From Candidatus Woesearchaeota archaeon (GTDB taxonomy: Archaea; Nanobdellota; Nanobdellia; SCGC-AAA011-G17; JACPNG01): a DNA stretch of 64,000 nt. The notes beneath the pieces are model-generated. The model was not told where the DNA came from. It did no database searches and was given only the letters and a program-made list of their open reading frames with translations. How positions within the stretch are numbered: the stretch's first letter is position 1; every line of letters begins with the position of its first letter. The stretch covers positions 15,330 to 79,329 of the forward strand of contig JAGVYI010000016.1 in the NCBI GenBank assembly GCA_018303365.1, written 5' to 3'. Position numbers and translations under genes: made by a program. Of this stretch, positions 1-62,561 are shown piece after piece.

Positions 1-435
1 GGTCGCTTTTTTGAACAGACTCTTCCTTTGATTGAAGAGCGTTATATTAAGACCGGAAAGGTTCGTTTTGTCTACAAGGATTTCCCTTTAGAGAGCATTC
101 ATCCACAGGCACTTCCAGCTGCTAGCGCTGCCCGGTGTGCAGGTGAACAGGGCAAGTTTTGGGATTATCATGACCTTATCTTCAATAATCAAGCTTTATT
201 GAGTGATACAAATTATAAGCAATGGGCTGAACAACTTGGTCTTGACATGGATGACTTTAGTTCCTGCTATGACTCTGGCAAGTATGTAAATGATATACGG
301 GCTGATCTTCAAGAGGGTTCGCGTGCTGGTGTTCAGGGCACTCCTGGCTTTCTGATTAACGGCCAACTTGTAAGTGGTGCACAGCCTTTCGCAAACTTTG
401 AGCAGGTCATCGAGGCGGAGCTTTCTGCAGCTTAA
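1..435 (+). CDS. DsbA-family thiol:disulfide oxidoreductase, partial. The 5' end, including the CxxC site, lies upstream of the window.
   Basis: The open frame runs from base 1 with no stop. The C-terminal half matches the DsbA/COG1651 thioredoxin fold (FVYKDFPL...GTPGFLINGQLVSG). Confidence 0.55.
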   Translation, partial: GRFFEQTLPLIEERYIKTGKVRFVYKDFPLESIHPQALPAASAARCAGEQGKFWDYHDLIFNNQALLSDTNYKQWAEQLGLDMDDFSSCYDSGKYVNDIRADLQEGSRAGVQGTPGFLINGQLVSGAQPFANFEQVIEAELSAA

Positions 436-440
436 TCTTT

Positions 441-971
441 ATGAGGGGGCGCTTTTTTCAGATTAAGGAGGTGCTCTCCCACCGCCTTTACTTTTTTTTG
501 TTTATTTTTTTTTCTCTATTTTATATTGGTATTTATTATGGAATTATCCGGTTTTTTTTCTATGGCTTACAAACATTTTTCGTGACTTACAGGCCTTCTT
601 ATGTTTATCCTGCTATTTTTTTGAATTTTATGATTGCACTTCTTGTTGGAACTAACATTTCTCTTCTGGTTTTTTGGATAAAAGAAATTCGCTCTCTTGG
701 TTCTGGAGGCTCTGTTGCCGGGTTTTTTGGCATCTTCGCCGCAGCTCTTGCCAATGGCTGTCCTGGATGCATTGCTGGTCTTTTTCCTTTGTTCCTTTCC
801 CTTTTTGGAATTACTGCTTCACTTAGCATTTTGCCTTTTAATGGGCTTGAGCTTCAAGCGGCAAGTGTTCTTCTTTTGGGAACTTCTATTTTCTTTCTTT
901 CCGGGCAGCGCCGACTTGTTTGTCCAGCCAATATTACAGTTTCCAAGAACGTTAATTTTAAAAGGAGGTAG
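441..971 (+). CDS. Polytopic membrane protein with a CPGC motif in a hydrophobic segment; candidate membrane redox partner for the flanking DsbA-like and Trx-like proteins.
   Basis: Very hydrophobic 176-aa ORF. ANGCPGCIAGLFP contains the only CxxC pair. It lies 5 nt after the DsbA-like gene and 14 nt before the CPHC Trx-like gene. Confidence 0.4.
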   Translation: MRGRFFQIKEVLSHRLYFFLFIFFSLFYIGIYYGIIRFFFYGLQTFFVTYRPSYVYPAIFLNFMIALLVGTNISLLVFWIKEIRSLGSGGSVAGFFGIFAAALANGCPGCIAGLFPLFLSLFGITASLSILPFNGLELQAASVLLLGTSIFFLSGQRRLVCPANITVSKNVNFKRR

Positions 972-985
972 GCGGTTAGTCTAAT

Positions 986-1363
986 ATGTGTTCTGTTACC
1001 TTTACTTTCCTTATTGCTAGCCTTTTTGTCCTTGCTGGCTGTACAGGCAATGTTGTCAAGGTTTTACCCGGGGAATATGATGGGTTTGTTTCATGTCTTC
1101 TTGACAAGAACGTAAAGATGTACGGTGCTTATTGGTGTCCTCATTGTGCTAACCAAAAAGAACTGTTTGGAGATTCTTTCACCCTTTTTGAGGCAAGTGG
1201 TGGATATGTTGAGTGCGACCCGAAGGGTAGAAATGCCCAGCCACTTGAATGTACAAAGAAAGGCATTACTGGATTTCCTACTTGGATTTTCTCAGAGGGT
1301 CAGCGCGTTAGCGGTACCCAACCGCTTACTTCATTAAGTGAACTTTCTGACTGTCCATTATGA
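986..1363 (+). CDS. Thioredoxin-like lipoprotein with a CPHC active site, of the VKOR/DsbB-associated Trx-like domain type.
   Basis: The N-terminus has a lipobox-like LAGC. YGAYWCPHCANQKELFG closely resembles the Trx-like domain fused to bacterial VKOR homologues. Confidence 0.5.
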   Translation: MCSVTFTFLIASLFVLAGCTGNVVKVLPGEYDGFVSCLLDKNVKMYGAYWCPHCANQKELFGDSFTLFEASGGYVECDPKGRNAQPLECTKKGITGFPTWIFSEGQRVSGTQPLTSLSELSDCPL

Positions 1364-1986
1364 AGTATGACCTATTTATAGTTTTTTTTCTTGCTTTGCT
1401 TTCCCCCCTTTTTATTTCTCTTTTTACTATACATCTTTTCGTTTATGATGCTGGATTTTATCATGATGCTTTTTTGAAGTATGGGGTTTATGAGCGTGTG
1501 CCTTTTGATGCAGATTCAGCTCTTTTAGATATTATTTCTTTTCTTCGAGGAGGAGAACTTACTTCTTCTGTTTTTTCTGAAACAGAATTTCTTCATCTAT
1601 TAGACGTCAGGAACTTATTTTTTTACGGAGAAATAATCTTTTATGCCATTAGCATCTTATTCTTATTCTGGATTGGATTTCTTTTCTTTCGTCGCCACTA
1701 TGCCCTAATTTTCTATCTCTTTTTCTATGGAGGCCTGTTTTCTATATTACTTTTTTCACTTTTTACTTTGCTACCTTTCTCTTCTATATTCCTAAACTTT
1801 CATCTGGCCTTTTTTTCTAATGATTACTGGATACTGCCTTCTGATTCTTCGCTTGTCCTTCTATTCCCTCAGGAGTTTTTCTTTGATTTTTATCGTATTA
1901 TACTACTTTATAGTTTTATCTGGTCATTTTTGTTTCTTGTTATAGCTTTTCTTATTTATAGGCTCAGGTTACGTACCCTTTTATGA
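1360..1986 (+). CDS. Integral membrane protein, function unknown.
   Basis: Multiple hydrophobic helices. Its start overlaps the stop of the preceding gene (ATGA). Confidence 0.3.
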   Translation: MKYDLFIVFFLALLSPLFISLFTIHLFVYDAGFYHDAFLKYGVYERVPFDADSALLDIISFLRGGELTSSVFSETEFLHLLDVRNLFFYGEIIFYAISILFLFWIGFLFFRRHYALIFYLFFYGGLFSILLFSLFTLLPFSSIFLNFHLAFFSNDYWILPSDSSLVLLFPQEFFFDFYRIILLYSFIWSFLFLVIAFLIYRLRLRTLL

Positions 1987-2608
1987 GAAGTTTTCCTAGT
2001 GTGCTTATCTTTATATCCAGCTTCCCCCTTTTTTGTTGCACGTCAACAAGGCCTAGTTGTTTGAGCCCTTCAGATTTTATTGTTCCATTTACATGATAGG
2101 AGACAAGTGGAAGACTCATCTTCGCTTTTCTACTTAGTTCTTCAAGAGATGCACAGCACCCGTCTTCATACAGCAGTTTTAGAATATTCAACTTTCTCTC
2201 AGTGAGGATCTTATAATACGAGAATTTCAGCACAGGCAATAGCATCACTTGGTTCTCAGCCACACTAAATGCTTTTAGTCCATTTACGAATGCCGCCGAA
2301 GTTGCTGCACACTGGGTTTCCCTGTCTCCTGTTGCTACATTTACAATGATATTCTTGTCTCCTTCCTCGCTTCTTATTTTTGAGACCGCCCTGAACATTT
2401 CTTCCCATACTTCACCCTTGATTTCTTTTATCTGCACCTGTATCTTGAATTTTTCAATCTCTTTTTTCAACTTATTTGCGTCATCTATTCTTTTTGGCGG
2501 AGAGATAAGGATAATCCTATCTGTGGGGAATTCCTTTAACCCCACAAAAATGGCATCTAGGTTATCCCCTACAGGAGCAACGACAATGTTTTTCATGTTT
2601 TGTAACAT
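1964..2608 (-). CDS. Rossmann-like (CARF/Csa3-like) N-terminal domain fused to a C-terminal winged helix-turn-helix; putative ligand-responsive transcription regulator.
   Basis: The N-terminus NIVVAPVGDNLDAIFVGL...RIILISP looks like a CARF/Rossmann domain. The C-terminus LNILKLLYEDGCCASLEELSRKAKMSLPLVSYHV is a wHTH. Confidence 0.3.
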   Translation of the reverse strand: MLQNMKNIVVAPVGDNLDAIFVGLKEFPTDRIILISPPKRIDDANKLKKEIEKFKIQVQIKEIKGEVWEEMFRAVSKIRSEEGDKNIIVNVATGDRETQCAATSAAFVNGLKAFSVAENQVMLLPVLKFSYYKILTERKLNILKLLYEDGCCASLEELSRKAKMSLPLVSYHVNGTIKSEGLKQLGLVDVQQKRGKLDIKISTLGKLLIKGYVT

Positions 2609-2883: not shown

Positions 2884-3138
2884 ATGGCAAAGGTAAAAGT
2901 TTATTCAACGAGTACCTGTCCTTGGTGCCATAAGACCAAGGAATTTCTTAAGGAACACCGTATTCCTTTTGATGATATTAATGTTGAGGAAGATCAAAAG
3001 GCTGCTCAAGATATGGTTAAAAGGTCTGGTCAGATGGGTGTTCCTGTTATTGATATTGCTGGCGAGATTGTTGTTGGCTTTGACAAATCTCGCATTGAAA
3101 AAGCCCTTAAGAAGAACGGTCTACTTAAAGCAGCATAA
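2884..3138 (+). CDS. Glutaredoxin / NrdH-like redoxin.
   Basis: 84 aa with a CPWC active site, TCPWCHKTKEFL...GVPVI..GFD. Confidence 0.75.
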   Translation: MAKVKVYSTSTCPWCHKTKEFLKEHRIPFDDINVEEDQKAAQDMVKRSGQMGVPVIDIAGEIVVGFDKSRIEKALKKNGLLKAA

Positions 3139-6208: not shown

Positions 6209-6964
6209 ATGCAAAAAAGAGGACAACTTTACATTATTGCTGCACTTATTTTTAGTGCAGTTCTTTATACCCTTGCTACGCAAGCAAATACCTACAGGCA
6301 AGAAGACTTTGCCGAGGGTTTTGATGACCTTTCGACCAACTATGCTACTGAGAGCGAACGTCTTGTCAATTCACTTTTATATTCTAATCAAGATGTTCTT
6401 TCCGGGTTTACTAATTTTACACTTCTTTTTACCGGCTATACTAAATCGAAGAATCCTTCCTTTGGCTTGATATACATCTTTGAATTTAATGAGACTATTC
6501 AGGTTGGCAATTTTCTTGACCGGCCTATTATTATTGATACCGGTGATGCACAAAGTTATGATTTTCATAATTTGGAGGGGTGTTTTGACCGCGTTTCTGC
6601 TGTTGTGAAGTTTGCTGGTCTTTCTTTTTCCAGCGACGTTGCTGCAGGTGATATCCAGGAGTGCATTCTTACTTTTCCTACCAAGGATCAGATATGGATT
6701 GGAGTTGATGATGCCTGGTATCCTTTCTCTGTTGTTCGCGGCAAACCAACACTTATGATTGTTACCCGCCAAGAAGCCCAAGAACAAAGAAAGGTTTTTA
6801 TAGGCGGTGAAGGATTTGTTCGTAACAACCGTGACCGTCCTGGACTTCGCTCTCATTGCGAACAGTTGTCTTTGACTTCATGTGAGCTTGCAGGCAATAG
6901 GCGTCTTTGCTGTGTCAGGGATGGTGATTGCGTTCCGCAATATAACTGCATGGAAGAGGGGTGA
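6209..6964 (+). CDS. Class-III signal peptide (archaeal type IV pilin-like) protein.
   Basis: N-terminus MQKRGQ followed by about 20 hydrophobic residues (LYIIAALIFSAVLYTLA). It is first in a run of three overlapping pilin-like genes. Confidence 0.5.
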   Translation: MQKRGQLYIIAALIFSAVLYTLATQANTYRQEDFAEGFDDLSTNYATESERLVNSLLYSNQDVLSGFTNFTLLFTGYTKSKNPSFGLIYIFEFNETIQVGNFLDRPIIIDTGDAQSYDFHNLEGCFDRVSAVVKFAGLSFSSDVAAGDIQECILTFPTKDQIWIGVDDAWYPFSVVRGKPTLMIVTRQEAQEQRKVFIGGEGFVRNNRDRPGLRSHCEQLSLTSCELAGNRRLCCVRDGDCVPQYNCMEEG

Positions 6965-7401
6965 TGTTTATCTTGAAAAAAGGTGTCGGTGCTCTTATAG
7001 GATGGGTTCTTCTTCTGGGTTTTGTTATTAGTATTGGCACTATGGTTTTTTTGAGTTTGCGGACTCATACTACTGAGCTTAGCGATCGTACTGTGAATTA
7101 TATATCTGGGCGCCTTGAATGTTCGGAAATCAACATTAACGTTGTTACTGCTCCTTCTTGCTCTTCGTTCTCCGTGACTAACAGGGGTGTTCTTAATATC
7201 GACCAAGTTGCTGTACGAATTTATAACGGCGAGACCCCAGTTGGTCAAACCCAGATATTTGAGAGTGTTATTGCGCCACATGCAACTGTAGATTATACGC
7301 CAGATTCTTCTGGTGAGCGCATAGAGGTTATTCCTATTGTTCTTATTGATAACAAACCATCAGGCTGTCTTGAGCGGAGGATTATCAAGCCATGTGGTTG
7401 A
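6961..7401 (+). CDS. Class-III signal peptide pilin-like protein.
   Basis: MMFILKKGVGALIGWVLLLGFVISIGTMVFL. ATGA overlap with the upstream gene. Confidence 0.5.
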   Translation: MMFILKKGVGALIGWVLLLGFVISIGTMVFLSLRTHTTELSDRTVNYISGRLECSEININVVTAPSCSSFSVTNRGVLNIDQVAVRIYNGETPVGQTQIFESVIAPHATVDYTPDSSGERIEVIPIVLIDNKPSGCLERRIIKPCG

Positions 7402-7862
7402 CTTCCAGGCAGGGTATTTCACCCTTTATTGCGACTGTTCTTCTGATTGGGCTTACAGTTACTGTTGCGCTTACAGTTATTCTTTGGGGTAGGAGTTACA
7501 TCCAAGAGCGCGCTGCTAAAGAAGGGGCTCTTTCTGAGAAGCAACTTACCTGCAAGATGATTTCATTTACTGCTACCCAGTCTTATCAGCAGTCTGGAGA
7601 GGTACACCTTGTGCTTAAAAATAAGGAAGACATTTCTATTGATAAATTTACTTTCCGCATTGAAGGGTCTGCTGCTGAACCAAAAGAGCGATATGATACG
7701 CTTCCTTCCCTTGCTACCAAAGAATATATTCTTTCATTTACTGAGGATGAACTGCAAAATATCGACCAGGTTTTTATTGTTCCTTGGCTTCGCGTTGCTT
7801 CAGGAGTTTATGTTCCCTGTTCTGACCAACATTTAACGGTCAATATTCTTTCGACTTCTTGA
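7392..7862 (+). CDS. Archaeal pilin/flagellin-like protein (DUF361-type N-terminus).
   Basis: RQGISPFIATVLLIGLTVTVA is the canonical archaeal class-III, DUF361-like N-terminus. Confidence 0.6.
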   Translation: MWLTSRQGISPFIATVLLIGLTVTVALTVILWGRSYIQERAAKEGALSEKQLTCKMISFTATQSYQQSGEVHLVLKNKEDISIDKFTFRIEGSAAEPKERYDTLPSLATKEYILSFTEDELQNIDQVFIVPWLRVASGVYVPCSDQHLTVNILSTS

Positions 7863-10217
7863 TTTTTCTTTGTATATTCCAAGTGCATAAAGAATACTTA
7901 TCAAGATGCTTGTTATCAGCAAGTTTGCTGTTGTAAATACCGGGAAGGCTCTTTCCCTTATGCATTCTGCCTGCTCTGCTGGTGTAAATTCAAACCTACA
8001 CAATTCATTTGTCCCCCTATAAACACATTTTGAGATGTCCCTTGTTCTGATGTTTGTTTCCGGGTCACATTCTGACCATTCTGTTGCAGTACAGTCCCAC
8101 TCTGCAAGGCACCTTGTCTGTCCTTTTGAGCACCCTTCGTTGTTGACACCTGTGCACAAGGGCGTTGATGTGCAAAGGTCCTGAAGGTTTGTTACACCGT
8201 CGCAGTCAAAGTCGTCTGTCCCACATGGCCTTACTTCCAGCTTGTTCGCTGATTTTACTTTTCTTTCCCCTACCTTGACATTGAAGTAATATTCAGGGTC
8301 TCCCTGCAAGAATCCATCATCTGTCCAATTAGCAGCCCAGATAGTCCTTGCTGACCTGTTGTCTATTCTTGTTGGTGTTGGAGGTGGAGGGGTTAGGGTA
8401 TCTCCAACAAGATCATCTTCAATCACTTCAAACTGCAGTTCTTTTCCATTGCAGTCTGGTCTTGTTTGTACTGTGATATTTACTTCTTTTCTATCTGCCG
8501 AGCAAGTTGGTTGCCATGATGCTGCTGTGATTGAGCAGCAATCCGGGTCTACACTATTACAGCGAGCATCTGCTGTGCATATTCCATCCGGGAGTGGATT
8601 ACAGCCGCATGCATATGAAGTACATGCGTTTCCTTGAAGACAGCTATCCTGCTGCTGATTACAGTCAGGGCATAAGCAATTTTCCCCTGGCTCACAGCTG
8701 TTTATACCATTACACTGGTAGCAGGTTCCTCCACGCGCCGTGGCGTCTTGCAGACAGGTGTAGCAATTCTCTCCTTGTTGAAGTTGATTGTCTCCGCATG
8801 TTCCACAGGTTTGACCTGTTGCTATAAGATCTTGCGGGCATGTTTGGCATATTTCTCCTTCATCTATTATTCCGTTTCCGCAACTTTGACATACTCCCGG
8901 GGGCATATCTTGGGGGCAAGTACCACAGTTTTCTCCATTAAGATAGTCTGGTTGGTTATTTCCACAGCTTAGGCATGTTTGTCCGGGCATGTCTTGCGGG
9001 CAGTTCCTGCAGTCTTCTCCTGTATCTGGGACACTGTTTCCACAGAAGCTATTTCCAGAGCAGTCTGGGTCAGGGGGTGTACATCCAGCTAAACATCCGT
9101 CTCCTCCCTGGCATGTGAGTGCATCACAGTCTGGGTCTGGTGTTAAGCAGCTTTGTGGTCCACATCCATCTCCCGGAGCACAAGTTGCTGCGCCACCACA
9201 ATCTGGGTCTATTGGATTGCACCCAATTACACAAAAACCATCTTCTCCATTGTCACATACTCTTCCTACACAATCTGGATCTGATGGCAGACAACCTGCC
9301 AGGCACCCATTTCCTACTTGGCAAGTTGTTTGTCCGCAATCTGGGTCTTGCGGGTTACATATGCCGCCTCCACATCCGTCGCCTGGAAGACACGTTCCTC
9401 CGCCGCAATCCGGATCTATTGGGTTGCAACCTACAGCACACGCATCACCTGGTGAACACGTTGCAACAGGAAAGGATGTGCAAACCCATGAGCCTTGGTT
9501 TTGCAGGCAGACCTCTCCATTTCCACACCCCGCATCGTCCGGACAGTTGTTACAATCTTCTCCTGTGTTTATTCTTCCATTCCCACACTCAGTTGTTGGT
9601 CCTTCTTCTGTTACTTCCAACAAGGGTGATTTTCTTAAAATCACTTCTGTTCCATTATCAAGGATGTGTGCGTTGAAATAATATTCTGGGTTGTCTGTTA
9701 TGAATGGGAAGATGCTTTCGTCCTGCCAATCTGCAATCCAAGATGAGCGGGCTTGACCTTCGCTATTAAATGGTGCTGGGAGTGGGTCTGGAGTGTAATC
9801 GTCATCAGGCGTTATTGGGGTGTCTTTTTCAAGGATATCCCACTGTACAATTTTCCCTCTGCAAGCCTGCGAACCCTCTACAGAGAGGAATACACGTTGT
9901 CTGTTTCCCGCTCTTGTTATTTCAATCAGGCTTGTATCTTTCCAGTTTATTGTATTGATACTACAACAGGCGGGATCTCCTTCATCTACTCCGGTAGAAG
10001 GGTCAAGATCAAATCCTCCTTGCGCATTATTGCAGTTATTGTCTATTCTATCTGTACAGTCTTCAACTTGGCCGTAGAAAATTAACGGATCGTTTGGGTT
10101 GCAATCCAAGGGATTGTCTGTTATTGGCTGCTGAAATCCTTGTGGTGATGCTGTTTGCACGACTAATAGAAGAAAACCAAGTATTAGTACTGCAAACACT
10201 CCTTTTTTGATTGGCAT
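7833..10217 (-). CDS. Giant secreted cysteine-rich surface protein with tandem C-x-P-x-DPDC repeats and a C-terminal transmembrane anchor.
   Basis: Signal peptide MPIKKGVFAVLILGFLLLVV. At least 6 tandem ~23-aa repeats (CNPIDPDCGGGTC..GDGC..). About 12% Cys. C-terminal TM helix plus KEKSRSRK tail. Confidence 0.7.
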   Translation of the reverse strand: MPIKKGVFAVLILGFLLLVVQTASPQGFQQPITDNPLDCNPNDPLIFYGQVEDCTDRIDNNCNNAQGGFDLDPSTGVDEGDPACCSINTINWKDTSLIEITRAGNRQRVFLSVEGSQACRGKIVQWDILEKDTPITPDDDYTPDPLPAPFNSEGQARSSWIADWQDESIFPFITDNPEYYFNAHILDNGTEVILRKSPLLEVTEEGPTTECGNGRINTGEDCNNCPDDAGCGNGEVCLQNQGSWVCTSFPVATCSPGDACAVGCNPIDPDCGGGTCLPGDGCGGGICNPQDPDCGQTTCQVGNGCLAGCLPSDPDCVGRVCDNGEDGFCVIGCNPIDPDCGGAATCAPGDGCGPQSCLTPDPDCDALTCQGGDGCLAGCTPPDPDCSGNSFCGNSVPDTGEDCRNCPQDMPGQTCLSCGNNQPDYLNGENCGTCPQDMPPGVCQSCGNGIIDEGEICQTCPQDLIATGQTCGTCGDNQLQQGENCYTCLQDATARGGTCYQCNGINSCEPGENCLCPDCNQQQDSCLQGNACTSYACGCNPLPDGICTADARCNSVDPDCCSITAASWQPTCSADRKEVNITVQTRPDCNGKELQFEVIEDDLVGDTLTPPPPTPTRIDNRSARTIWAANWTDDGFLQGDPEYYFNVKVGERKVKSANKLEVRPCGTDDFDCDGVTNLQDLCTSTPLCTGVNNEGCSKGQTRCLAEWDCTATEWSECDPETNIRTRDISKCVYRGTNELCRFEFTPAEQAECIRERAFPVFTTANLLITSILISILYALGIYKEKSRSRKNIDR

Positions 10218-10266: not shown

Positions 10267-12564
10267 TTAGAATAAGCGACCTACCCAGCTTCCTATGTTA
10301 TCTATCATTCTTTCAATAACATTTCTTCTTTCTATCCCTTCTTCGGTTAACTCCTCTAATGCTTCCCGCCACTTTCCTGTCCTGATGAGCTTTACAACAT
10401 TCTCTTCTTCAAGCCCCTTTCTTTGCTTTACCAACTGTTCACGTTGCGCTAATTCCTCTGGTGGCAGTTCTGTTCCAAGAGCTGGTGCTGGCAAGTCTTC
10501 GCATAGGGGGGCGTCAAAATCAATAAGCCCGTCCCCATCACGGTCACAAATACTTTTTGTTGAGTCACTTGCTTCATTTATAAGACCGTCACAGTCTTCA
10601 TCCCTTCCTATTAGGTCACAGCACTCTGTTCCTACATTTCCTTTTTGTTCATAGTATTCGCACCTATTTGCGCATATTCCGTCTCCATCAAAATCAAACC
10701 ATCCACCACGGCACCCACTGCATTGTCCTTGTTCACATGTGAGGGCATTATTTGCAGCACAACTGTTGCCACATTCTCCACAATTGTTGGGGTCATTTCT
10801 TGCATCAAGTTCACACCCATCAGATAAGTCTCCGTTGCAATTTCTGAATCCTTGGTTACAACTTTCAATTAGACATACCCCAGATTCACACCTTCCCCTT
10901 GCATTTTGAAGATTACAACTGTTCCCTATTGCACCACAGTTACTTACGTCATTGTTTAGGTCTGCACAGGTGCTTGTTTGTGAATTCCACGAACAACTTT
11001 CTCCTGTTGCAACGTTGCATGGGTTTTGCAAGCAAGTTGTTTCATCTTTATAGTCTTGGCAGCTATTTGCATTTTCTTGGCATGCTGTACATAGGTCTGG
11101 TAGAAGAGTTCTTTGTGTGTAAAAGCAATTGCCCCCACATGTATCACAGACTTGTCTTGAGCATGTGCTTAGAAGGCCGCTTCCACATTCTTGACAGGAT
11201 GCGCAGGCACATTCTCCCCTGTTAATACATGCTGGGTTTGATGAACAGGCATCCTGTGTTGCACACCCATCTGAGCCTATTTGGCAACCTGCGGGGGTGT
11301 TCCTACATATATCTTGGCAATCATTTATCCCGTCTTCGTCTGAATCTCCTGCGGGTACAAGACGATATCCTTGGCAGATTCTGTTATCCTGAGTGCATTC
11401 TCCGTGAGTATTACATTCTTTTTCTCCACCACAGGTTCGTCCTTCAAATGTTCTGCTTAGGATACAGCCTGATGGGCACGTACAAATGCTTGGATTTCCT
11501 TTGATGCTTGGGTTTGTACATGTTTCGCCACATGCTGCAACATCTGTTGTCACCACCTGTTGTTGACCTACGCAATCCGGGTCTGGTGTGCTGCACCTTA
11601 ATGCACACCCGTTTCCCGCGGCACATGTTGATATTGACGTACAATCTTGGTCATAGTATGCACAATTTACTCCTAATTCTACCGGGCAAAACCCATCAGT
11701 TGCTCCGCATGCATAACATGTGTTGCAGATTTCTACTGCTTGTCTTGAATTGAGAGTGAAACCAAGTAGTCCGCAGGCGGTTGTTGTTCTTTCTCCTTCA
11801 ACAATTGTCCTTGTAGGCTGGGTTGTTTGCTGCTCTGTTCCTGTTTGCGTGCTTGCAGGAGCACTTGCCCTTATTGTTAGGCTTGTCTGCCCTGTTGCTC
11901 CAGCACTGTCTGTTACTGTAAGCCTGACAGTGTATTGACCTGCACTTTGATAGGTGTGGCTTGGGTTTTGTATCCTAGCTGTTTGTTCGTCTCCAAAATC
12001 CCAATTGTATGTAAGTATTCCTCCGTCTGGGTCTGATGAACCTAAACTATTGAATCGTACTGTTAGAGGAACTGTTCCTGAAAGAGGGTCTGCGTTTGCC
12101 CTTGCAGTTGGAGGATTGTTTAGCGGCTCTTGGGTTGTTCCTGTTTGTTGTGGTGCTGTTACGGTTATTGTGACAGTTTGACTTGCGCTTTCTCCTTTGT
12201 CATCTCTTAATGTAAATGTTGCTGTGTAGATTCCAGGTTGATTATAAGTTTTGGTTGGATTCTGGCTGTTAACTGGCTGAGACCCATCACCATAATCCCA
12301 TGTGGCAACTGTTGGGTCTCCATCTGGATCTGTTCCAGAACCAAAGAACCTTATAGTATGAGGGGCATTTCCTGATGGAGGGTTAGCTTCTATACTTATT
12401 ATTGTAGGTGCTCTGTTTTCTGGTTGTGCTTGCTCCTCTCCTGTCTCTTCAGGTGGTGGTGGGGGGATACCTCCTGGACCGCCGAGCTGAGCATTAGATA
12501 CTCCTATAGGGAGTAAAATAAGAATGATTAGTATTGCAATTAGTCTCTCTGACCTCTTTTTCAT
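10267..12564 (-). CDS. Large secreted protein with two PKD-like domains, Asp-rich Ca-binding (thrombospondin type-3-like) repeats and a Cys-rich region.
   Basis: Signal peptide, then PPPPPEE. PKD signatures WDYGDGS and WDFGDE. DSDEDGINDCQD and DRDGDGLIDFD repeats. It shares a CSTPDPDC motif with the neighbouring protein. Confidence 0.7.
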   Translation of the reverse strand: MKKRSERLIAILIILILLPIGVSNAQLGGPGGIPPPPPEETGEEQAQPENRAPTIISIEANPPSGNAPHTIRFFGSGTDPDGDPTVATWDYGDGSQPVNSQNPTKTYNQPGIYTATFTLRDDKGESASQTVTITVTAPQQTGTTQEPLNNPPTARANADPLSGTVPLTVRFNSLGSSDPDGGILTYNWDFGDEQTARIQNPSHTYQSAGQYTVRLTVTDSAGATGQTSLTIRASAPASTQTGTEQQTTQPTRTIVEGERTTTACGLLGFTLNSRQAVEICNTCYACGATDGFCPVELGVNCAYYDQDCTSISTCAAGNGCALRCSTPDPDCVGQQQVVTTDVAACGETCTNPSIKGNPSICTCPSGCILSRTFEGRTCGGEKECNTHGECTQDNRICQGYRLVPAGDSDEDGINDCQDICRNTPAGCQIGSDGCATQDACSSNPACINRGECACASCQECGSGLLSTCSRQVCDTCGGNCFYTQRTLLPDLCTACQENANSCQDYKDETTCLQNPCNVATGESCSWNSQTSTCADLNNDVSNCGAIGNSCNLQNARGRCESGVCLIESCNQGFRNCNGDLSDGCELDARNDPNNCGECGNSCAANNALTCEQGQCSGCRGGWFDFDGDGICANRCEYYEQKGNVGTECCDLIGRDEDCDGLINEASDSTKSICDRDGDGLIDFDAPLCEDLPAPALGTELPPEELAQREQLVKQRKGLEEENVVKLIRTGKWREALEELTEEGIERRNVIERMIDNIGSWVGRLF

Positions 12565-12647: not shown

Positions 12648-13670
12648 GTGCGTTCTTTTCTTTTTTTGGTCATGGTTAATCAAGAATTAATTAATTATCT
12701 TAAAAATGGGCTTTCACAGGGAAAATCTGTTGACTATCTTCGCTCTGAGCTTACTAAAGCGGGGTGGCCTTCTTCCTTGATTTTTGATGCTGTTCAAGCA
12801 GTTTCAGTACAGAAAACTTCTTTACCAAAACAACCTGCTTTAGAGAAAGGGCCTGAACAACCTTCTGTTCAGAAGCCTTTCGAGAAGACACCTGTTTCTT
12901 CCCCTATTAAAGCTGGATCTTCTTCAGAGGAGTATTTTGGTTATAGTGCTCCTGCTCCAAGTAAATTAAAGCTTTCTTCCAAACACTATATTGCCTTTGG
13001 AGCTGCAGGTATTTCTCTTGTTGTACTTGGAATTGTTTTGTTCTTTGTTTTTGGGCCTGGTGGTGGAGAGCGTGTCCTTACTGTTTCTGAACAATCTGGT
13101 GGTGGTTCAGCTTCAGTTGCTTCTTCTGGAAGTAGTACTACCCCTCTTAGCAATACTTCTTCTCAGAGTATTCCTTCTTCAGGTGACTTTGGCATACCAT
13201 CTAGTCAGGTTAATGCCCTTGGCAGTCAGGGTAGCGCGGTTTGTGAAAATGGGGTTTTAGAGGCTGGAGAGACCTGTGATGGGAATTGTCCGACTAACTG
13301 CACTTCCTCATCTTCCTGCGTTAGTGCTGTCCTTTATGGAAGCGCTCCTTCTTGCACCTCACAATGTGTTCTTGCCAACATAACCTCTTGTGTTTCTGGA
13401 GATGGCTGCTGCCCCTTTGTTTGCAATGGTTTTACTGATTCTGACTGTTCTGGCGGACAGCAAATTAATCAAACGTCAAATCAGAGTTCTGGACAAGGAG
13501 CGTTGCAAAGCTGTTCTTCTCAGGGAGGTAGTGTTTGTCCTTCCGGCCAAAGCTGTTCTGGCAGCATTGTTTCTGCTTCAGATACTTCTTTATGCTGTAT
13601 CGGTACTTGTGAGAGTTCATCTGAAGAAGACTCTGGAGTTGCTCCTCCACCTCCACCCCCTTCAATGTGA
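12648..13670 (+). CDS. Single-pass membrane protein with a Ser-rich linker and a Cys-rich extracellular C-terminal domain.
   Basis: N-terminal soluble domain, TM at YIAFGAAGISLVVLGIVLFFVF, Ser-rich segment, at least 20 Cys in the last 150 aa, and a PPPPPPPS tail. Confidence 0.5.
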   Translation: MRSFLFLVMVNQELINYLKNGLSQGKSVDYLRSELTKAGWPSSLIFDAVQAVSVQKTSLPKQPALEKGPEQPSVQKPFEKTPVSSPIKAGSSSEEYFGYSAPAPSKLKLSSKHYIAFGAAGISLVVLGIVLFFVFGPGGGERVLTVSEQSGGGSASVASSGSSTTPLSNTSSQSIPSSGDFGIPSSQVNALGSQGSAVCENGVLEAGETCDGNCPTNCTSSSSCVSAVLYGSAPSCTSQCVLANITSCVSGDGCCPFVCNGFTDSDCSGGQQINQTSNQSSGQGALQSCSSQGGSVCPSGQSCSGSIVSASDTSLCCIGTCESSSEEDSGVAPPPPPPSM

Positions 13671-15141: not shown

Positions 15142-15991
15142 AAGAGTTACTGGTTCTTCTCTTGGTCCAAATGCTGAAATTCCAAGGAATATTGAGCTAG
15201 ATGTTCCCCATAGCCAAACCATATATAGAGGCGATTTATACTATTTAACTATAAATGTCTGGGGTGTTTCTAGCTTAGAGGGAATACATTACAAAGTGTT
15301 GTATTGTGATGCCACTGTTAATCCTAGTTGTGAACCAAACGTTGAGGGAAATAACATGATTCTAAATTCTAGTAATTGGAGATTTTTTAGAGGAACGACG
15401 AGAGGATGGAATAACTTCAACGCGACAGTTGCAAGATGGAGTGGGGATCGTACAGGGGGATTCAATTCCCTTTTTGGGCGCACAACCCCTCCAGAGGGTG
15501 AATATCGAGTTAGGTTTGTGTTGAATGGTATTGAATCTCAAGTCTATAATTTTAAGGTTGAGGATAGCAGGCCGGACAGGTCTCCTAGTTCGGCTGATTT
15601 TACTATATATCCGGCCCAAATGATCGAAGGCCAATCAGTTACCCTCCAGATTATAGCTACAGGAATTGCTTCAAGAAATGGTCTTGAAGATGCTGCAATT
15701 GAAATCAATACCTGTTATGCGGGGTCTTTTTCAAGTGATTATGAGGAACGAGATTGTTTTCCTGTTGGAGGTCAGAACACGCAGCGTCTTCCTCCTGCAG
15801 GGGATGATCCCTGGATACTTAGCAGTGACTCTTTATTTTCTCGAGCAACACTGTTAACTAGACCTTCAACTATTGTTCGTCCTAGGGAGGGTGGTAGTTA
15901 TCGGCCAGAGGAAGGTTACTACAATGTGTGGATTAAGATATATGGTACTGAATCTCATGTAAGCAGAATTGGAGTTAGAAGTTCTCCATAG
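14639..15991 (+). CDS. Surface protein paralog A: conserved N-terminal signal-anchor plus Cys-containing domain, with a unique C-terminal domain.
   Basis: MKKRSKKKPSSKFYHHQLYIPIILVLSFASLALLWIF... The first ~170 aa are nearly identical to those of the 21099 gene. Confidence 0.65.
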   Translation: MKKRSKKKPSSKFYHHQLYIPIILVLSFASLALLWIFSTGATGYATYSFGNTVPQGFGVPWNVFSSQHENIISSSNGMITAQADYVYKYGYVWDGSQWTRFEFPQQKVSNNWVAREASFDVNSLGLTAGEYSVVAYTCQYVNKEWKCGCRTSQCRNGVDGGMWQLQKVRVTGSSLGPNAEIPRNIELDVPHSQTIYRGDLYYLTINVWGVSSLEGIHYKVLYCDATVNPSCEPNVEGNNMILNSSNWRFFRGTTRGWNNFNATVARWSGDRTGGFNSLFGRTTPPEGEYRVRFVLNGIESQVYNFKVEDSRPDRSPSSADFTIYPAQMIEGQSVTLQIIATGIASRNGLEDAAIEINTCYAGSFSSDYEERDCFPVGGQNTQRLPPAGDDPWILSSDSLFSRATLLTRPSTIVRPREGGSYRPEEGYYNVWIKIYGTESHVSRIGVRSSP

Positions 15992-16031
15992 TTTTCGAAA
16001 TATTTATATATTCCCATATAATCTTTCATTT

Positions 16032-16529
16032 ATGTTTTACCAAAAGAGGGGTATTTCACCACTTATTGCTACTGTCTTGATTCTTGGTTTTACCGTGGCA
16101 CTTGGTGTTCTTATTATTAATTTTAGCACTTCGTTTACAAGAAATATTCAGGAACAGACAACGGAATCTTCAAACACCCAGATTATCTGTGCTCAAGAAG
16201 TACTATTTAGCATTTCTAATGCCTGCGATGCAGGAAATAATATTGTTCGCGTGACTGTCAAAAATGATGGTTCCAGAGATATTGATCGGTTTATCTCTAG
16301 ATTTTATAGGAGTGAGAGTGATGTTGCTCAAGAGACCCTTACATTTATTAATAATGGCAATGGCATTTCTTCTTTTAACATAGAGTCTGATGAGGTTACT
16401 ATTCCTAATGGTCCTGTTCGCCAAGTTGAACTTATCCCTGTTGTTACTATCTCTGGCAAATCTGTTACGTGTTCAACCAATGTTGACTCTTTCGGAGCTG
16501 TTCTTGGAGATGGTCTTCTTGGTTGCTGA
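16032..16529 (+). CDS. Archaeal pilin-like protein (DUF361-type).
   Basis: MFYQKRGISPLIATVLILGFTVALGVLI. The internal Met was chosen as the start; the ORF-track start at 15969 is upstream. Confidence 0.55.
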   Translation: MFYQKRGISPLIATVLILGFTVALGVLIINFSTSFTRNIQEQTTESSNTQIICAQEVLFSISNACDAGNNIVRVTVKNDGSRDIDRFISRFYRSESDVAQETLTFINNGNGISSFNIESDEVTIPNGPVRQVELIPVVTISGKSVTCSTNVDSFGAVLGDGLLGC

Positions 16530-16538
16530 AGGGTCATT

Positions 16539-17060
16539 ATGAAGCTGGGTGAGGTTTGGGTTTCTGCAGTTCTTTACTTGGCTTTGGGTCTTATACTTAT
16601 CACAATTGTTCTTGCTGCCGGCATCCCTCTTATTAACAAAATACGAGACCGCAATACTGTTGCGCAAACAAAGGACATTCTTTTTGTCCTTGATAAAAAC
16701 ATCCGAACTGTTGCTTCTGAAGGCACAGGCTCAAAGCGCTATGTAAGTCCGGTTAACATTGATGCGGGAGAGCTTGTTTTTGATTCTGACCAAGACAGAC
16801 TTTCCTGGAGCATGACAACAAGCAACAAACTTGCAGAGCCCAGTCTTACACTTCAGGAAGGAGTACTGTTTCTTCGCCTTGATGAGACTCCTATTTCTGA
16901 TGAGTATAAGGTTAATCTGTGGCTTGATTACCTGAATCTCTATGACCTTTTCATGGTTTCAGACTTTTCCAATCCTTTTTCTGGAACTTATAGTCTTTCT
17001 ATTGAAAATAATGGAACCTATGCCAATGGTCGACCCACGATTGTTTTAAGGGTTGCTTAG
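16539..17060 (+). CDS. Pilin-like / pilus-assembly accessory protein (FlaF/FlaG-like N-terminal anchor).
   Basis: N-terminal hydrophobic anchor VSAVLYLALGLILITIVLAAGIPLINKIR, then a beta-rich domain. Confidence 0.4.
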   Translation: MKLGEVWVSAVLYLALGLILITIVLAAGIPLINKIRDRNTVAQTKDILFVLDKNIRTVASEGTGSKRYVSPVNIDAGELVFDSDQDRLSWSMTTSNKLAEPSLTLQEGVLFLRLDETPISDEYKVNLWLDYLNLYDLFMVSDFSNPFSGTYSLSIENNGTYANGRPTIVLRVA

Positions 17061-36721: not shown

Positions 36722-37126
36722 TTACTTAGAAATTACCATTTTTAATGACCACCTGCCACTTCCCAGAAGAGCAAGAGAACTTGTTGCTCCTAGAAGAAGA
36801 AAGACAAGCTCTATTCCTCCGTCTTGAATGAAAAATCCGTTTTTGAGATGTACTGTAAAAAGTGCGACTGCCATATCCATTGCAAGAAGCGTGCTTGCTA
36901 GCTTTGTAAGTATTCCTAGCAGTATCGCAATACCCCCAAAAAATTCTAGTATTGCTAGAGCCCATGCTGCTAGCGCCGGAAATGGCACACCAATATTTGT
37001 GAGAAGTCCTGTGAATCCAGGTATGCCTCCAAACAGCTTTACGTATCCGTGTGCAATAAATATTACTCCTACAACAACGCGTAGTATAAGTAAAGCTATT
37101 CCTTTTTTATTCTGCATGTGATTCAA
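36722..37126 (-). CDS. DoxX-family membrane protein.
   Basis: Four TM helices and a DoxX-like N-terminus, ILRVVVGVIFIAHGYVKLFGG. Confidence 0.6.
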   Translation of the reverse strand: MNHMQNKKGIALLILRVVVGVIFIAHGYVKLFGGIPGFTGLLTNIGVPFPALAAWALAILEFFGGIAILLGILTKLASTLLAMDMAVALFTVHLKNGFFIQDGGIELVFLLLGATSSLALLGSGRWSLKMVISK

Positions 37127-61999: not shown

Positions 62000-62073
62000 T
62001 GGACTCGGCGGGATTCGAACCCGCGGCCCCCGCCTTGCGAAGGCGATGCTCTACCAGACTGAGCTACGAGCCC
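62000..62073 (-). tRNA. tRNA-Ala (anticodon CGC).
   Basis: GGGCUCG acceptor with a G3:U70 wobble, anticodon loop UUCGCAA, T-loop UUCGAAU. Confidence 0.85.
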
Positions 62074-62486: not shown

Positions 62487-62561
62487 TGGGGTTGCCCGGA
62501 TTTGGACCGGGGTCTGGGCATCCCGAATGCCCGATGCTCGTCCAAGCTACACCACAACCCC
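62487..62561 (-). tRNA. tRNA-Pro (anticodon CGG).
   Basis: Acceptor GGGGUUG/CAACCCC, anticodon arm GGGCA-UUCGGGA-UGCCC, T-arm CCCGG-UCCAAAU-CCGGG. An extra G lies at -1. Confidence 0.75.

What the first reader, a model, noticed from the sequence alone, without database searches (positions are those of the whole stretch)
1..1363. Extracytoplasmic disulfide-bond module (DsbA-like + CPGC membrane protein + CPHC Trx-like lipoprotein) next to a cysteine-rich surface island
Three consecutive same-strand genes are a DsbA-fold protein, a polytopic membrane protein whose only CxxC (CPGC) lies in a hydrophobic segment, and a lipoprotein with a YGAYWCPHCANQKELFG site typical of VKOR-associated Trx domains. 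The membrane protein has only 3 Cys, so it is not a canonical VKOR or DsbB with two Cys pairs. It may be an undescribed re-oxidising partner. The system would be needed to fold the dozens of Cys-rich secreted proteins in this window.
Basis: partly seen in the sequence, partly recalled or inferred. Interest (0 to 1): 0.6.

Follow-up and report, generated by a model that had tools for sequence, protein, structure and literature searches.

The report
Uncharacterised three-cysteine membrane partner of DsbA
A small archaeal operon pairs a DsbA-type disulfide enzyme with a membrane protein from a large, unnamed family with three invariant cysteines, probably a new membrane component of the machinery that manages disulfide bonds in secreted proteins of ultra-small archaea and bacteria.

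Summary
Window 1-1986 is a four-gene operon. It encodes a membrane-anchored DsbA-like protein whose CPFC active site lies just upstream of the window, a 176-aa membrane protein (MP), a lipoprotein homologous to the thioredoxin domain of cyanobacterial VKOR, and a cysteine-free Lit-like membrane protein.

MP has no Pfam or NCBIfam model and no solved-structure relative. Profile comparison gives 0.4% probability against DsbB and against VKOR. It belongs to a family of at least 1350 clusters in DPANN archaea and CPR bacteria. Across 83 diverse members, only the three cysteines are invariant.

MP is tightly linked to DsbA. A DsbA gene lies within 300 nt upstream in 27 of 34 evaluable distinct loci. 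Natural MP-DsbA and MP-VKOR fusions exist.

MP is not simply a DsbB/VKOR substitute. It shares operons with DsbB in 9 loci. Charge bias and the fusions put both termini, and therefore the third cysteine, in the cytoplasm. The CPGC sits at a helix break in the middle of the membrane.

My best reading (about 0.4) is a transmembrane thiol-disulfide relay that works like CcdA/DsbD. A new DsbA re-oxidase (about 0.28) is not excluded. This is a new family doing a known kind of job, and it needs experiment.

The parts
1..435 (+). 3' part (144 codons plus stop) of a membrane-anchored DsbA-like thiol:disulfide oxidoreductase. The full gene is 249 aa with a CPFC active site just upstream of window base 1.
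   Evidence: Pfam Thioredoxin_4 4.9e-25 and DSBA 7.5e-18. The nearest solved relatives are actinobacterial DsbA/MdbA-type proteins (4pwp 9e-17); ScsC 4gxz scores 4e-6. The full-length sequence comes from identical contigs L058-L060.
441..971 (+). MP: a 176-aa, four-pass membrane protein of an unnamed family. The invariant residues are C107-P-G-C110, at a helix break in the third transmembrane segment, and juxtamembrane C161. A conserved LPFNGLELQ motif lies on the outer face.
   Evidence: No Pfam or NCBIfam hit. 65 close homologues and 1350 cluster representatives. C107, C110 and C161 are the only invariant columns in 83 diverse members. AF2 model pLDDT 83.5. Charge-bias topology. DsbA adjacency 27/34.
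986..1363 (+). Thioredoxin-like lipoprotein (lipobox LAGC, active site WCPHC, 8 Cys). It is a free-standing homologue of the thioredoxin domain normally fused to VKOR.
   Evidence: PDB 3kp8 7.7e-20 and 3kp9 1.6e-19, aligned over residues 30-125. Homologues lie downstream of MP in 10 of 23 evaluable loci, and 8 of those 10 also carry DsbB downstream.
1360..1986 (+). Lit-like (TIGR01906/PF07314) integral membrane protein with no cysteines. It is the last gene of the operon, and its start overlaps the previous stop (ATGA). It occupies the position that DsbB holds in related loci.
   Evidence: Pfam Lit 1.4e-15, 58.2 bits against a cut-off of 24. NCBIfam TIGR01906 3.1e-11, below its cut-off. Cys count 0. 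The DsbB HMM finds nothing in the window.

Best explanation
Genes 1-4 form one operon for handling thiols and disulfides outside the cytoplasmic membrane of a DPANN archaeon. MP is the dedicated membrane partner of the DsbA-like protein.

Proposed mechanism: MP is a four-pass protein with N and C termini in the cytoplasm. Its third transmembrane segment is a discontinuous helix (residues 92-105 and 108-122). The CPGC pair sits at the break, roughly mid-membrane, at the N-terminus of the second half-helix. The third invariant cysteine (C161) sits on the positively charged cytoplasmic tail just after the last helix.

I propose that the three cysteines form a thiol-disulfide relay across the membrane. 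A cytoplasmic thioredoxin or glutaredoxin reduces C161 and the CPGC. The CPGC then passes electrons to the CPFC of the DsbA-like protein, and possibly to the CPHC lipoprotein, on the outer face near the conserved LPFNGLELQ loop. This would keep the partner able to reduce or reshuffle wrong disulfides in the very Cys-rich surface proteins. MP would therefore work like CcdA/DsbD without being related to them. In related genomes the thioredoxin-lipoprotein plus DsbB pair supplies the oxidising branch.

Shown:
- the gene content;
- the family and its invariant cysteines;
- the DsbA linkage;
- the lack of detectable homology to DsbB or VKOR, with no Pfam match to the CcdA/DsbD or MauE models;
- co-occurrence with DsbB and VKOR.

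Inferred:
- the topology;
- the mid-membrane position of the CPGC;
- the direction of electron flow;
- the cytoplasmic donor.

The broader claim, that MP is a catalytic thiol-redox partner of DsbA in either direction, I put at about 0.7.
For: 1. Linkage to DsbA. Among 40 distinct MP genes, 34 have enough upstream sequence to evaluate. Of these, 27 have a same-strand DsbA-like gene within 300 nt, 2 more have one within 1.2 kb, and 1 is a natural MP-TM-DsbA fusion (P0176).
2. Catalytic cysteines. In 83 members with 22-57% identity to the window protein, the only invariant columns are C107, C110 and C161. The CxxC varies in its middle residues (CPGC, CPAC, CPVC, CAAC and others), as expected of a redox or ligand pair.
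3. Topology.
   - K+R per segment: N-terminus 4.2, loop 2 2.8, C-terminal tail 3.6, against loop 1 1.2 and loop 3 0.02.
   - The tail after C161 is net positive in 75 of 83 members.
   - Long basic N-termini carry no signal peptide (P0096, P0161, P0212).
   - In P0100 the MP C-terminus runs straight into VKOR TM1, whose N-terminus is cytoplasmic in VKORs.
   - In P0176 it runs into the cytoplasmic tail plus membrane anchor of a DsbA.
   - Hence C161 is cytoplasmic and the number of passes is even.
4. AF2 (pLDDT 83.5, pTM 0.74) gives helices 92-105 and 108-122 flanking the CPGC, then a non-helical conserved loop 123-135, then helix 136-153. This describes a broken transmembrane helix with the Cys pair at the break.
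5. Not redundant with known oxidases. A bona fide DsbB (PF02600 4e-09, CxxCWxQR motif) lies downstream of MP in 9 of 23 evaluable loci, in 8 of them together with the thioredoxin-lipoprotein homologue. Example: L010 has DsbA-MP-Trx-DsbB, with the last three genes overlapping or abutting. Two independent MP-VKOR fusions exist.
6. MP also pairs with other extracytoplasmic Cys proteins that must be kept reduced. These are a CuA-type cupredoxin lipoprotein (L001), a DUF411/cupredoxin/HMA cluster (L047), and unknown Cys-rich ectodomains fused after an extra transmembrane segment.
7. Tandem two-domain DsbA partners occur in L003 and L008. I take two active sites per chain to suit disulfide isomerases, by analogy with dimeric DsbC; this is my own inference.
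Against: - No biochemical evidence exists, and I could not inspect the coordinates of the model. The depth of the CPGC and its distance from C161 are therefore inferred from helix lengths only.
- The nearest solved relatives of the DsbA are oxidases that pair with VKOR. In other organisms, adjacency of DsbA to a membrane partner is typical of oxidase pairs such as bdbDC and Mtb DsbA-VKOR (own knowledge).
- Most evaluable loci (13 of 23) and the window itself show no DsbB or VKOR nearby, so MP could be the only oxidase there.
- A fusion of a reductant conduit to VKOR, an oxidase, is not obviously sensible.
- Three cysteines are an odd number for two-electron relays, which may imply a dimer or a different chemistry.
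- Loci were retrieved using motifs of the window's sub-family, so the adjacency figures describe mainly DPANN members.
Confidence: 0.4

Rival explanations
1. MP is a new, non-homologous DsbA re-oxidase, a functional analogue of DsbB, VKOR or MauE. Its membrane CPGC takes electrons from reduced DsbA, and from the CPHC lipoprotein, and passes them to a membrane quinone or another acceptor.
For: - DsbA-MP is a near-obligate gene pair.
- No DsbB, VKOR or CXC-type MauE was found in the 64-kb window plus 10 kb upstream. The DoxX/MauE-like protein at 36725-37126 has no Cys.
- In the window the VKOR-type thioredoxin lipoprotein has lost its usual DsbB neighbour but keeps MP.
- The DsbA resembles VKOR-dependent actinobacterial oxidases.
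- A CxxC at a helix N-terminus inside the membrane, plus a conserved acidic residue (E137), echoes VKOR and MauE active sites.
- The field expects further oxidase classes: 20% of bacterial species lack DsbB, VKOR and MauE (bioRxiv 10.64898/2026.03.05.709764).
Against: - The invariant C161 is cytoplasmic by charge bias and fusion logic. It has no role in any known oxidase.
- There is no second extracytoplasmic Cys pair.
- MP co-occurs in one operon with DsbB and is fused with VKOR, which would make it redundant.
- The hosts are DPANN/CPR organisms, generally thought to lack quinone synthesis and respiratory chains (own knowledge).
Confidence: 0.28
2. MP is a thiophilic-metal (Cu(I), Hg(II) or similar) conduit that works like MerT/MerC/MerF. 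Metal is handed from an outer Cys protein to the membrane Cys pair and then to the cytoplasmic Cys.
For: - The layout of a membrane Cys pair plus a cytoplasmic Cys (or CxxC in 6 of 83 members) matches Mer transporters (own knowledge of MerT/MerC).
- Some members sit in copper contexts. L047 has DUF411 (2.9e-24), a cupredoxin and an HMA-like protein. L001 has a CuA-type cupredoxin.
- CPR members are fused to CxCCG-type Cys-rich ectodomains.
Against: - There is no sequence match to the MerT, MerC or other metal-transport models in Pfam or NCBIfam.
- The dominant partner is DsbA, not a metallochaperone.
- The fusions to VKOR and DsbA are redox proteins.
- The copper contexts are equally explained by a need to keep copper-site cysteines reduced.
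Confidence: 0.1
3. MP is a non-catalytic accessory of DsbA, for example a docking, anchoring or assembly factor. Its cysteines would be structural or lipid-modified.
For: It is always next to DsbA. No cofactor or catalytic motif other than the Cys can be recognised.
Against: - The three Cys are the only invariant residues across very divergent members.
- The CxxC spacing is strictly kept while its inner residues vary, which is the signature of a reactive pair.
- A structural disulfide between a mid-membrane residue and a cytoplasmic residue is implausible.
Confidence: 0.07

Closest known systems
CcdA / DsbD (transmembrane thiol-disulfide electron conduits)
   Same: - Cysteines lie inside the membrane at proline-containing helix breaks.
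- It partners with extracytoplasmic thioredoxin-fold proteins.
- Fusions to the partner through an extra transmembrane segment occur (MP-TM-DsbA resembles CcdA-Trx proteins such as DipZ).
- It is associated with copper-protein and Cys-rich-protein contexts.
   Different: - No sequence or fold similarity was detected.
- MP has 4 passes instead of 6-8.
- It has one CxxC plus a cytoplasmic Cys instead of two single Cys on repeated half-domains.
- Its partner is a DsbA-type (Thioredoxin_4) protein.
VKOR and DsbB (quinone-dependent DsbA oxidases)
   Same: - It is a small four-helix membrane protein with a CxxC at the N-terminus of a membrane helix.
- It is encoded next to, or fused with, DsbA.
- The neighbouring lipoprotein is homologous to the VKOR thioredoxin domain.
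   Different: - hhalign probability is 0.44% against VKOR and 0.39% against DsbB.
- There is no extracytoplasmic loop Cys pair.
- The third Cys is cytoplasmic.
- MP co-occurs with DsbB in one operon and is fused to VKOR, so it is not a replacement for either.
MauE (CXC membrane oxidase, bioRxiv 10.64898/2026.03.05.709764)
   Same: It is a recently recognised small membrane protein that can replace DsbB, which shows that more membrane Dsb partners exist.
   Different: - MP has no PF07291 match and has CxxC rather than CXC.
- The window's only DoxX/MauE-like protein (36725-37126) lacks cysteines.
ScsB-ScsC (copper-stress disulfide reductase system)
   Same: A DsbA-fold protein is paired with a membrane protein and linked to copper contexts. 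ScsC (4gxz) matches the window DsbA at 4e-6.
   Different: ScsB is a DsbD-family protein, and MP is unrelated to it. The scs genes are proteobacterial.
MerT / MerC / MerF mercury transporters
   Same: The layout is the same: a Cys pair inside a transmembrane helix plus cytoplasmic Cys.
   Different: There is no sequence match, no mer operon, and the partners are redox enzymes.

Membership tests
VKOR (PF07884) | Sequence or profile match to the VKOR family | tested here: not met
   No Pfam hit at E<=1 for MP or for any stand-alone member among 83. hhalign of A2 against a VKOR alignment gives probability 0.44%. The apparent hit of A3 is an artefact of the fused VKOR domain of P0100.
VKOR (PF07884) | Extracytoplasmic loop Cys pair plus a CxxC at the outer end of TM4 | tested here: not met
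   MP has only 3 Cys. There is none in loop 1 or loop 3, and the third Cys lies after the last helix on the positively charged side.
DsbB (PF02600) | Sequence or profile match, with the CxxC(W)xQR motif and a second periplasmic Cys pair | tested here: not met
   No Pfam hit. hhalign against the DsbB genes of the related loci gives probability 0.39%. Genuine DsbB genes with that motif sit elsewhere in the same operons.
CcdA / DsbD transmembrane domain | Sequence match; 6-8 passes with one Cys in each of two repeated halves | tested here: not met
CcdA / DsbD transmembrane domain | Receives electrons from cytoplasmic thioredoxin and reduces an outer thioredoxin-fold partner | not testable with these tools
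   Only indirect evidence: the cytoplasmic C161, the mid-membrane CPGC and the DsbA partner.
MauE (PF07291) | Family match and a CXC active site | tested here: not met
   No hit. The motif is CxxC.
Mer-type metal transporters (MerT/MerC/MerF) | Family match and mer or metal operon context | tested here: not met
   No hit. The context is DsbA in 30 of 34 loci. Copper-related neighbours occur only in L001 and L047.
DsbA-like thioredoxin family (gene 1) | Thioredoxin_4/DSBA domain, CxxC active site, cis-Pro loop, export or membrane anchor | tested here: met
   PF13462 4.9e-25. The full-length copy has CPFC, a G-T-P loop, an N-terminal membrane anchor and a second Cys pair in the helical domain.
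VKOR-associated thioredoxin-like domain (gene 3) | Homology to the Synechococcus VKOR thioredoxin domain, with WCPHC | tested here: met
   3kp8 7.7e-20, aligned over the whole domain including the CPHC.
VKOR-associated thioredoxin-like domain (gene 3) | Covalently fused to, or encoded beside, VKOR | tested here: not met
   It is a free-standing lipoprotein. No VKOR was found in the window or in any locus. In related loci its neighbour is DsbB.
Lit / TIGR01906 (gene 4) | Family match above the curated cut-off | tested here: inconclusive
   Pfam Lit scores 58.2 bits against a cut-off of 24 (met). The NCBIfam Lit equivalog scores 27.7 against 400, and TIGR01906 scores 43.5 against 74.8 (not met).

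The most novel reading that the evidence does not exclude
MP founds a new class of membrane thiol-redox enzyme, unrelated to DsbB, VKOR, MauE and CcdA/DsbD. It would be the principal membrane partner of DsbA in DPANN archaea and is also used by CPR bacteria. It would move redox equivalents across the membrane through a three-cysteine relay (cytoplasmic Cys, then mid-membrane CxxC, then DsbA) without needing a quinone. That would explain how organisms without respiratory chains manage the disulfides of their Cys-rich surface proteins.
Probability: 0.45. Interest if true: 0.8.

Novelty: new variant of a known kind. Interest (0 to 1): 0.68.

Why it matters
Only a few membrane protein classes are known to drive or correct disulfide formation outside the cytoplasm: DsbB, VKOR, CcdA/DsbD and, very recently, MauE. 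A recent survey still finds about 20% of bacterial species with none of the known oxidases.

DPANN archaea and CPR bacteria live attached to other cells and depend on large, Cys-rich surface proteins and pili, yet they mostly lack quinone synthesis and respiratory chains (own knowledge). A large unnamed family shared by both groups, genetically welded to DsbA and defined by three invariant cysteines, is a concrete, testable candidate for the missing membrane component.

Whichever direction it works in, characterising it would add a new fold and probably a new mechanism to oxidative protein folding. It would also improve the annotation of more than a thousand 'hypothetical protein' clusters.

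Tried and rejected
- Fold search against the AlphaFold database: the library was unavailable.
- A profile search of PDB sequences gave one chance hit, a heliorhodopsin at E=6.9.
It added little beyond 'hypothetical protein' names.
- hhalign of A3 against VKOR gave 99.7%. I rejected this as an artefact of the fused VKOR domain in P0100; the clean alignment A2 gives 0.44%.
- I tried to use the CPFC dipeptide of the DsbA to infer an oxidase or reductase character, and dropped it. The literature search gave no decisive rule.
- Literature searches for a description of this family (DPANN, Woesearchaeota or CPR with DsbA, VKOR or disulfide) found none. Meheust et al. 2019 (PMC6744442) note MdbA-like proteins enriched in CPR, with VKOR only the third most frequent neighbour. 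They do not name the first two in the passage I read.
- Several wider-family look-ups landed on contigs too short to show context (P0161, P0182, P0208).
- I considered that the MP-VKOR fusion might be a gene-calling artefact across a stop codon. I rejected this. The contig uses UGA as a sense codon throughout both halves (code 25, Gracilibacteria), and a second independent fusion exists.
- I considered that the gene after the lipoprotein might be a degenerate DsbB. I rejected this. It has a clear Lit/TIGR01906 match and no Cys.
- A five-pass topology with the C-terminus outside was rejected on charge bias and on the fusion junctions.
Full report
**1. What is in the window**

Bases 1-1986 carry four tightly packed genes on the + strand.

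Gene 1 (1-435) is the 3' part of a DsbA-like gene (Pfam Thioredoxin_4 4.9e-25, DSBA 7.5e-18). The window begins immediately after its active site. Contigs from public metagenomes encode the identical membrane protein (L058-L060). They give the full 249-aa DsbA, which has:
- a basic N-terminus and one membrane anchor;
- a Pro/Ser-rich linker;
- FSDFQ-CPFC-GRFFEQ;
- a G-T-P cis-Pro loop;
- a second Cys pair in the helical domain.

Its nearest solved relatives are actinobacterial DsbA/MdbA-type proteins (4pwp 9e-17). ScsC also matches (4gxz 4e-6).

Gene 2 (441-971) is the 176-aa membrane protein, called MP here.

Gene 3 (986-1363) has a lipobox (LAG-C) and WCPHC. It is a clear homologue of the thioredoxin-like domain of Synechococcus VKOR (3kp8 7.7e-20).

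Gene 4 (1360-1986) overlaps the stop of gene 3. It matches Lit/TIGR01906 (PF07314 1.4e-15) and has no cysteine.

Upstream, on the opposite strand, are a BlaR/BlaI-like pair and an Lgt homologue. The operon is therefore DsbA-MP-Trx lipoprotein-Lit.

The organism is a DPANN archaeon. The closest MP homologues are annotated as Nanoarchaeota, Woesearchaeota or Pacearchaeota. The contig also encodes archaeal-type proteins, for example ribosomal S17e and Rpb6 in the related locus L001.

**2. MP belongs to a large, unnamed family**

MP has no hit in Pfam or NCBIfam at E<=1. The same is true for 83 diverse relatives scanned one by one, where the only real hits are to fused VKOR or DsbA domains.

A word-indexed search found 65 close homologues, all 'hypothetical protein'. 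A full profile search of 1.84 billion cluster representatives found 1350 at E<=1e-3 and 339 at E<=1e-10.

Members occur in two groups:
- DPANN archaea;
- CPR bacteria. P0100 is on a Candidatus Gracilibacteria contig that uses UGA as a sense codon. P0154 lies beside mraZ, rsmH and the L10/L12 genes.

In the alignment of 83 members (22-57% identity to the window protein), the only invariant columns are C107, C110 and C161. G123, P132, G135 and E137 are at least 90% conserved. The CxxC keeps its spacing while its inner residues vary: CPGC 35, CPAC 12, CPVC 5, CPTC 5, CAAC 4 and others. The C-terminal Cys is single in 76 members and part of a CxxC in 6.

**3. MP is not a diverged DsbB, VKOR or MauE, and nothing links it to CcdA**

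| Test | Result |
|---|---|
| hhalign vs DsbB genes from related loci | probability 0.39% |
| hhalign vs VKOR alignment | probability 0.44% |
| PDB sequence profile search | one chance hit, E=6.9 |
| AF2 model 1 | pLDDT 71.5 |
| AF2 model 2 | pLDDT 83.5, pTM 0.74 |
| Foldseek | E>=3.4 |

The structure matches are generic helical bundles. No DsbB, VKOR or CcdA structure appears among them. MauE uses a CXC site, whereas MP has CxxC and no PF07291 match.

**4. Genetic linkage**

I fetched 62 loci. I called ORFs in the 58 that use the standard code and searched them with profiles or sequences of DsbA, MP, the lipoprotein and DsbB. After removing near-duplicates, 40 distinct MP genes remain.

Upstream, 34 loci have at least 300 nt to evaluate:
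- 27 have a same-strand DsbA-like gene within 300 nt, usually less than 70 nt and sometimes overlapping;
- 2 have one within 1.2 kb with one gene in between;
- 1 is a natural fusion, MP-linker-TM-DsbA (P0176, seen on three contigs).

All these DsbA partners carry CPFC or CPYC. Some are tandem two-domain DsbAs.

Downstream, 23 loci are evaluable:
- 10 have a homologue of the gene-3 thioredoxin protein;
- 9 have a genuine DsbB (PF02600 4e-09, invariant C-x-L-C-W-x-Q-R);
- 8 have both. In L010 the order is DsbA-MP-Trx-DsbB, with the last three genes overlapping or abutting.

Two modules therefore recur: DsbA+MP, which is almost obligatory, and Trx+DsbB, which come together. The window is unusual because it keeps the Trx lipoprotein but has the Lit-like gene where DsbB normally sits. 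HMM searches find no DsbB or VKOR in the 64-kb window or in 10 kb upstream. The window's DoxX/MauE-like protein (36725-37126) has no cysteine.

In Gracilibacteria, MP is fused in frame to a complete VKOR. There are two independent fusion clusters, P0100 and P0234. Close relatives have a stand-alone VKOR in the same genomic position.

Exceptions to the DsbA rule are informative:
- The closest clade to the window protein (57% identity; L001, L017/18) has Lgt upstream. Downstream it has either a CuA-type cupredoxin lipoprotein (CSVPCGAGHRSM) or a Cys-rich protein.
- L047 sits among DUF411, cupredoxin and HMA-type genes.
- CPR members are fused, after an extra transmembrane segment, to unknown Cys-rich ectodomains.

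**5. Topology**

Across 46 close relatives, the mean K+R counts are:

| Segment | Mean K+R |
|---|---|
| N-terminus | 4.2 |
| Loop 1 | 1.2 |
| Loop 2 | 2.8 |
| Hydrophobic stretch 92-130 (including CPGC) | 0 |
| Loop 3 (131-136) | 0.02 |
| C-terminal tail | 3.6 |

The 12 residues after C161 are net positive in 75 of 83 diverse members. Several members have long, basic N-terminal extensions without signal peptides, or two extra N-terminal helices, which keeps the parity.

Two fusion junctions support the same topology:
- The MP C-terminus runs into VKOR TM1, whose N-terminus is cytoplasmic in VKORs (established from the Synechococcus structure; own knowledge).
- It runs into the cytoplasmic tail plus anchor of a DsbA whose catalytic domain must be outside.

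Both termini, and C161, are therefore cytoplasmic, and there are four passes.

The better AF2 model gives helices 15-40, 52-86, 92-105, 108-122 and 136-153, with a non-helical conserved stretch at 123-135. The simplest reading is that 92-122 is one discontinuous transmembrane helix. The G-C-P-G-C would sit at its break, about mid-membrane, at the N-terminus of the second half-helix. The LPFNGLELQ motif would be on the outer face. I could not inspect coordinates, so the depth and the Cys-Cys distances are inferred.

**6. Interpretation**

The general claim is well supported, and I put it at about 0.7. MP is a catalytic thiol-active membrane partner of the DsbA-like protein.

The direction of electron flow is open. 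I favour a transmembrane thiol-disulfide relay that works like CcdA/DsbD, at about 0.4. My reasons:
- An invariant cytoplasmic Cys has no role in any known oxidase but is natural for a relay fed by cytoplasmic thioredoxin or glutaredoxin.
- The Cys pair sits at a proline-containing break in a membrane helix, as in CcdA/DsbD (own knowledge).
- MP coexists with DsbB and VKOR rather than replacing them. An operon such as DsbA-MP-Trx-DsbB then reads as one reducing or isomerising pair plus one oxidising pair, like DsbC/DsbD plus DsbA/DsbB in E. coli.
- The other partners of MP (a CuA cupredoxin, DUF411, Cys-rich ectodomains) are proteins whose thiols need to be kept reduced.

Most loci, including this window, show no other oxidase nearby. 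The DsbA also resembles VKOR-dependent oxidases.

A Mer-like metal conduit (about 0.1) and a non-catalytic accessory (about 0.07) are less likely.

**7. The 'Cys-rich island'**

The island is real but smaller than stated:
- 7836-10217 (-) has 78 Cys in 794 aa and no Pfam match.
- 10270-12564 (-) has 61 Cys and PKD/Ig domains.
- 12648-13667 has 18 Cys.
- 22889-25831 has 42 Cys.
- A handful of 150-250-aa secreted or pilin-like proteins have 4-5% Cys.

These are plausible clients of the module. That link is inference.

**8. Novelty and verdict**

I found no paper describing this family. It is absent from Pfam-A (2025 copy) and from NCBIfam release 20. The kind of system, DsbA plus a membrane redox partner, is known. 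The partner is a new, apparently unrelated family with a distinctive three-cysteine layout, shared by DPANN archaea and CPR bacteria.

I rate it a new variant of a known kind, with interest 0.68. The finding is worth experimental follow-up.

Noticed in passing
window 1360-1986 (+); L058 6770-7543 (-); L001 5122-5901; L017 3-506: Bacterial-type lipoprotein maturation genes occur in a DPANN archaeon. A Lit-like (PF07314/TIGR01906) gene ends the operon. An Lgt homologue (PF01790) lies 2.5 kb upstream in the source contigs and directly upstream of MP in the closest relatives. Several neighbouring proteins have lipoboxes (gene 3; the L001 cupredoxin).
   Followed up: partly
window 36725-37126 (-): A DoxX-family protein (4.8e-21) also touches the MauE model (3.7e-06) but contains no cysteine. 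It therefore cannot be a CXC-type MauE disulfide oxidase.
   Followed up: partly
window 7836-10217 (-), 10270-12564 (-), 12648-13667 (+), 22889-25831 (+): These are very Cys-rich secreted proteins. They have 78 Cys in 794 aa with no Pfam match, 61 Cys in 765 aa with PKD/Ig domains, 18 Cys in 340 aa, and 42 Cys in 981 aa. They are likely surface proteins and clients of the Dsb module.
   Followed up: partly
window 2884-3138 (+) and 1964-2608 (-): A YruB-family glutaredoxin-like protein (TIGR02196 6.6e-30, CPWC) lies 1.5 kb downstream of the operon and is a candidate cytoplasmic electron donor. Between them, on the opposite strand, is a Csa3/HFX_2341-like CARF-HTH regulator, with no CRISPR array seen nearby.
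   Followed up: no
L009 3611-4093, L029 1218-1766, L036 5583-6065: In other DPANN loci the homologue of gene 3 is not a lipoprotein. It carries an N-terminal cytoplasmic C2H2 zinc finger (PF13912 6.3e-07) followed by a membrane anchor, and a DsbB gene lies downstream in all three loci.
   Followed up: partly
P0154, P0159, L062 900-2354; P0180, P0192, P0196; L017 1136-1744; L047 1316-1540: Unknown Cys-rich extracytoplasmic domains are fused to or adjacent to MP in CPR and DPANN. Their motifs are YRPCCxNSTxFxDCNHG or CxWCCG...CGCAH, and they often end in GGCGV or GMVGGC. They have no Pfam or PDB match. They may be metal-binding or redox domains.
   Followed up: partly
L001 6509-6886: In the clade closest to the window protein, the gene after MP encodes a small lipoprotein cupredoxin with a CuA-type site (H...CSVPCGAGHRSM; COX2 2e-12). 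This is unexpected in a DPANN genome presumed to lack respiration.
   Followed up: partly
window 62487-62561 (-): ARAGORN calls a tRNA-Pro(CGG) here, but Rfam at gathering threshold reports only the neighbouring tRNA-Ala (62000-62073). It may be an atypical or intron-containing archaeal tRNA.
   Followed up: no
window 6961-7862, 15969-17060 (+): Several small proteins have archaeal class III (type IV pilin-like) signal sequences, for example QGISPFIATVLLIG and RGISPLIATVLILG. They lie next to the Cys-rich giants, which suggests a pilus or surface-structure locus.
   Followed up: no
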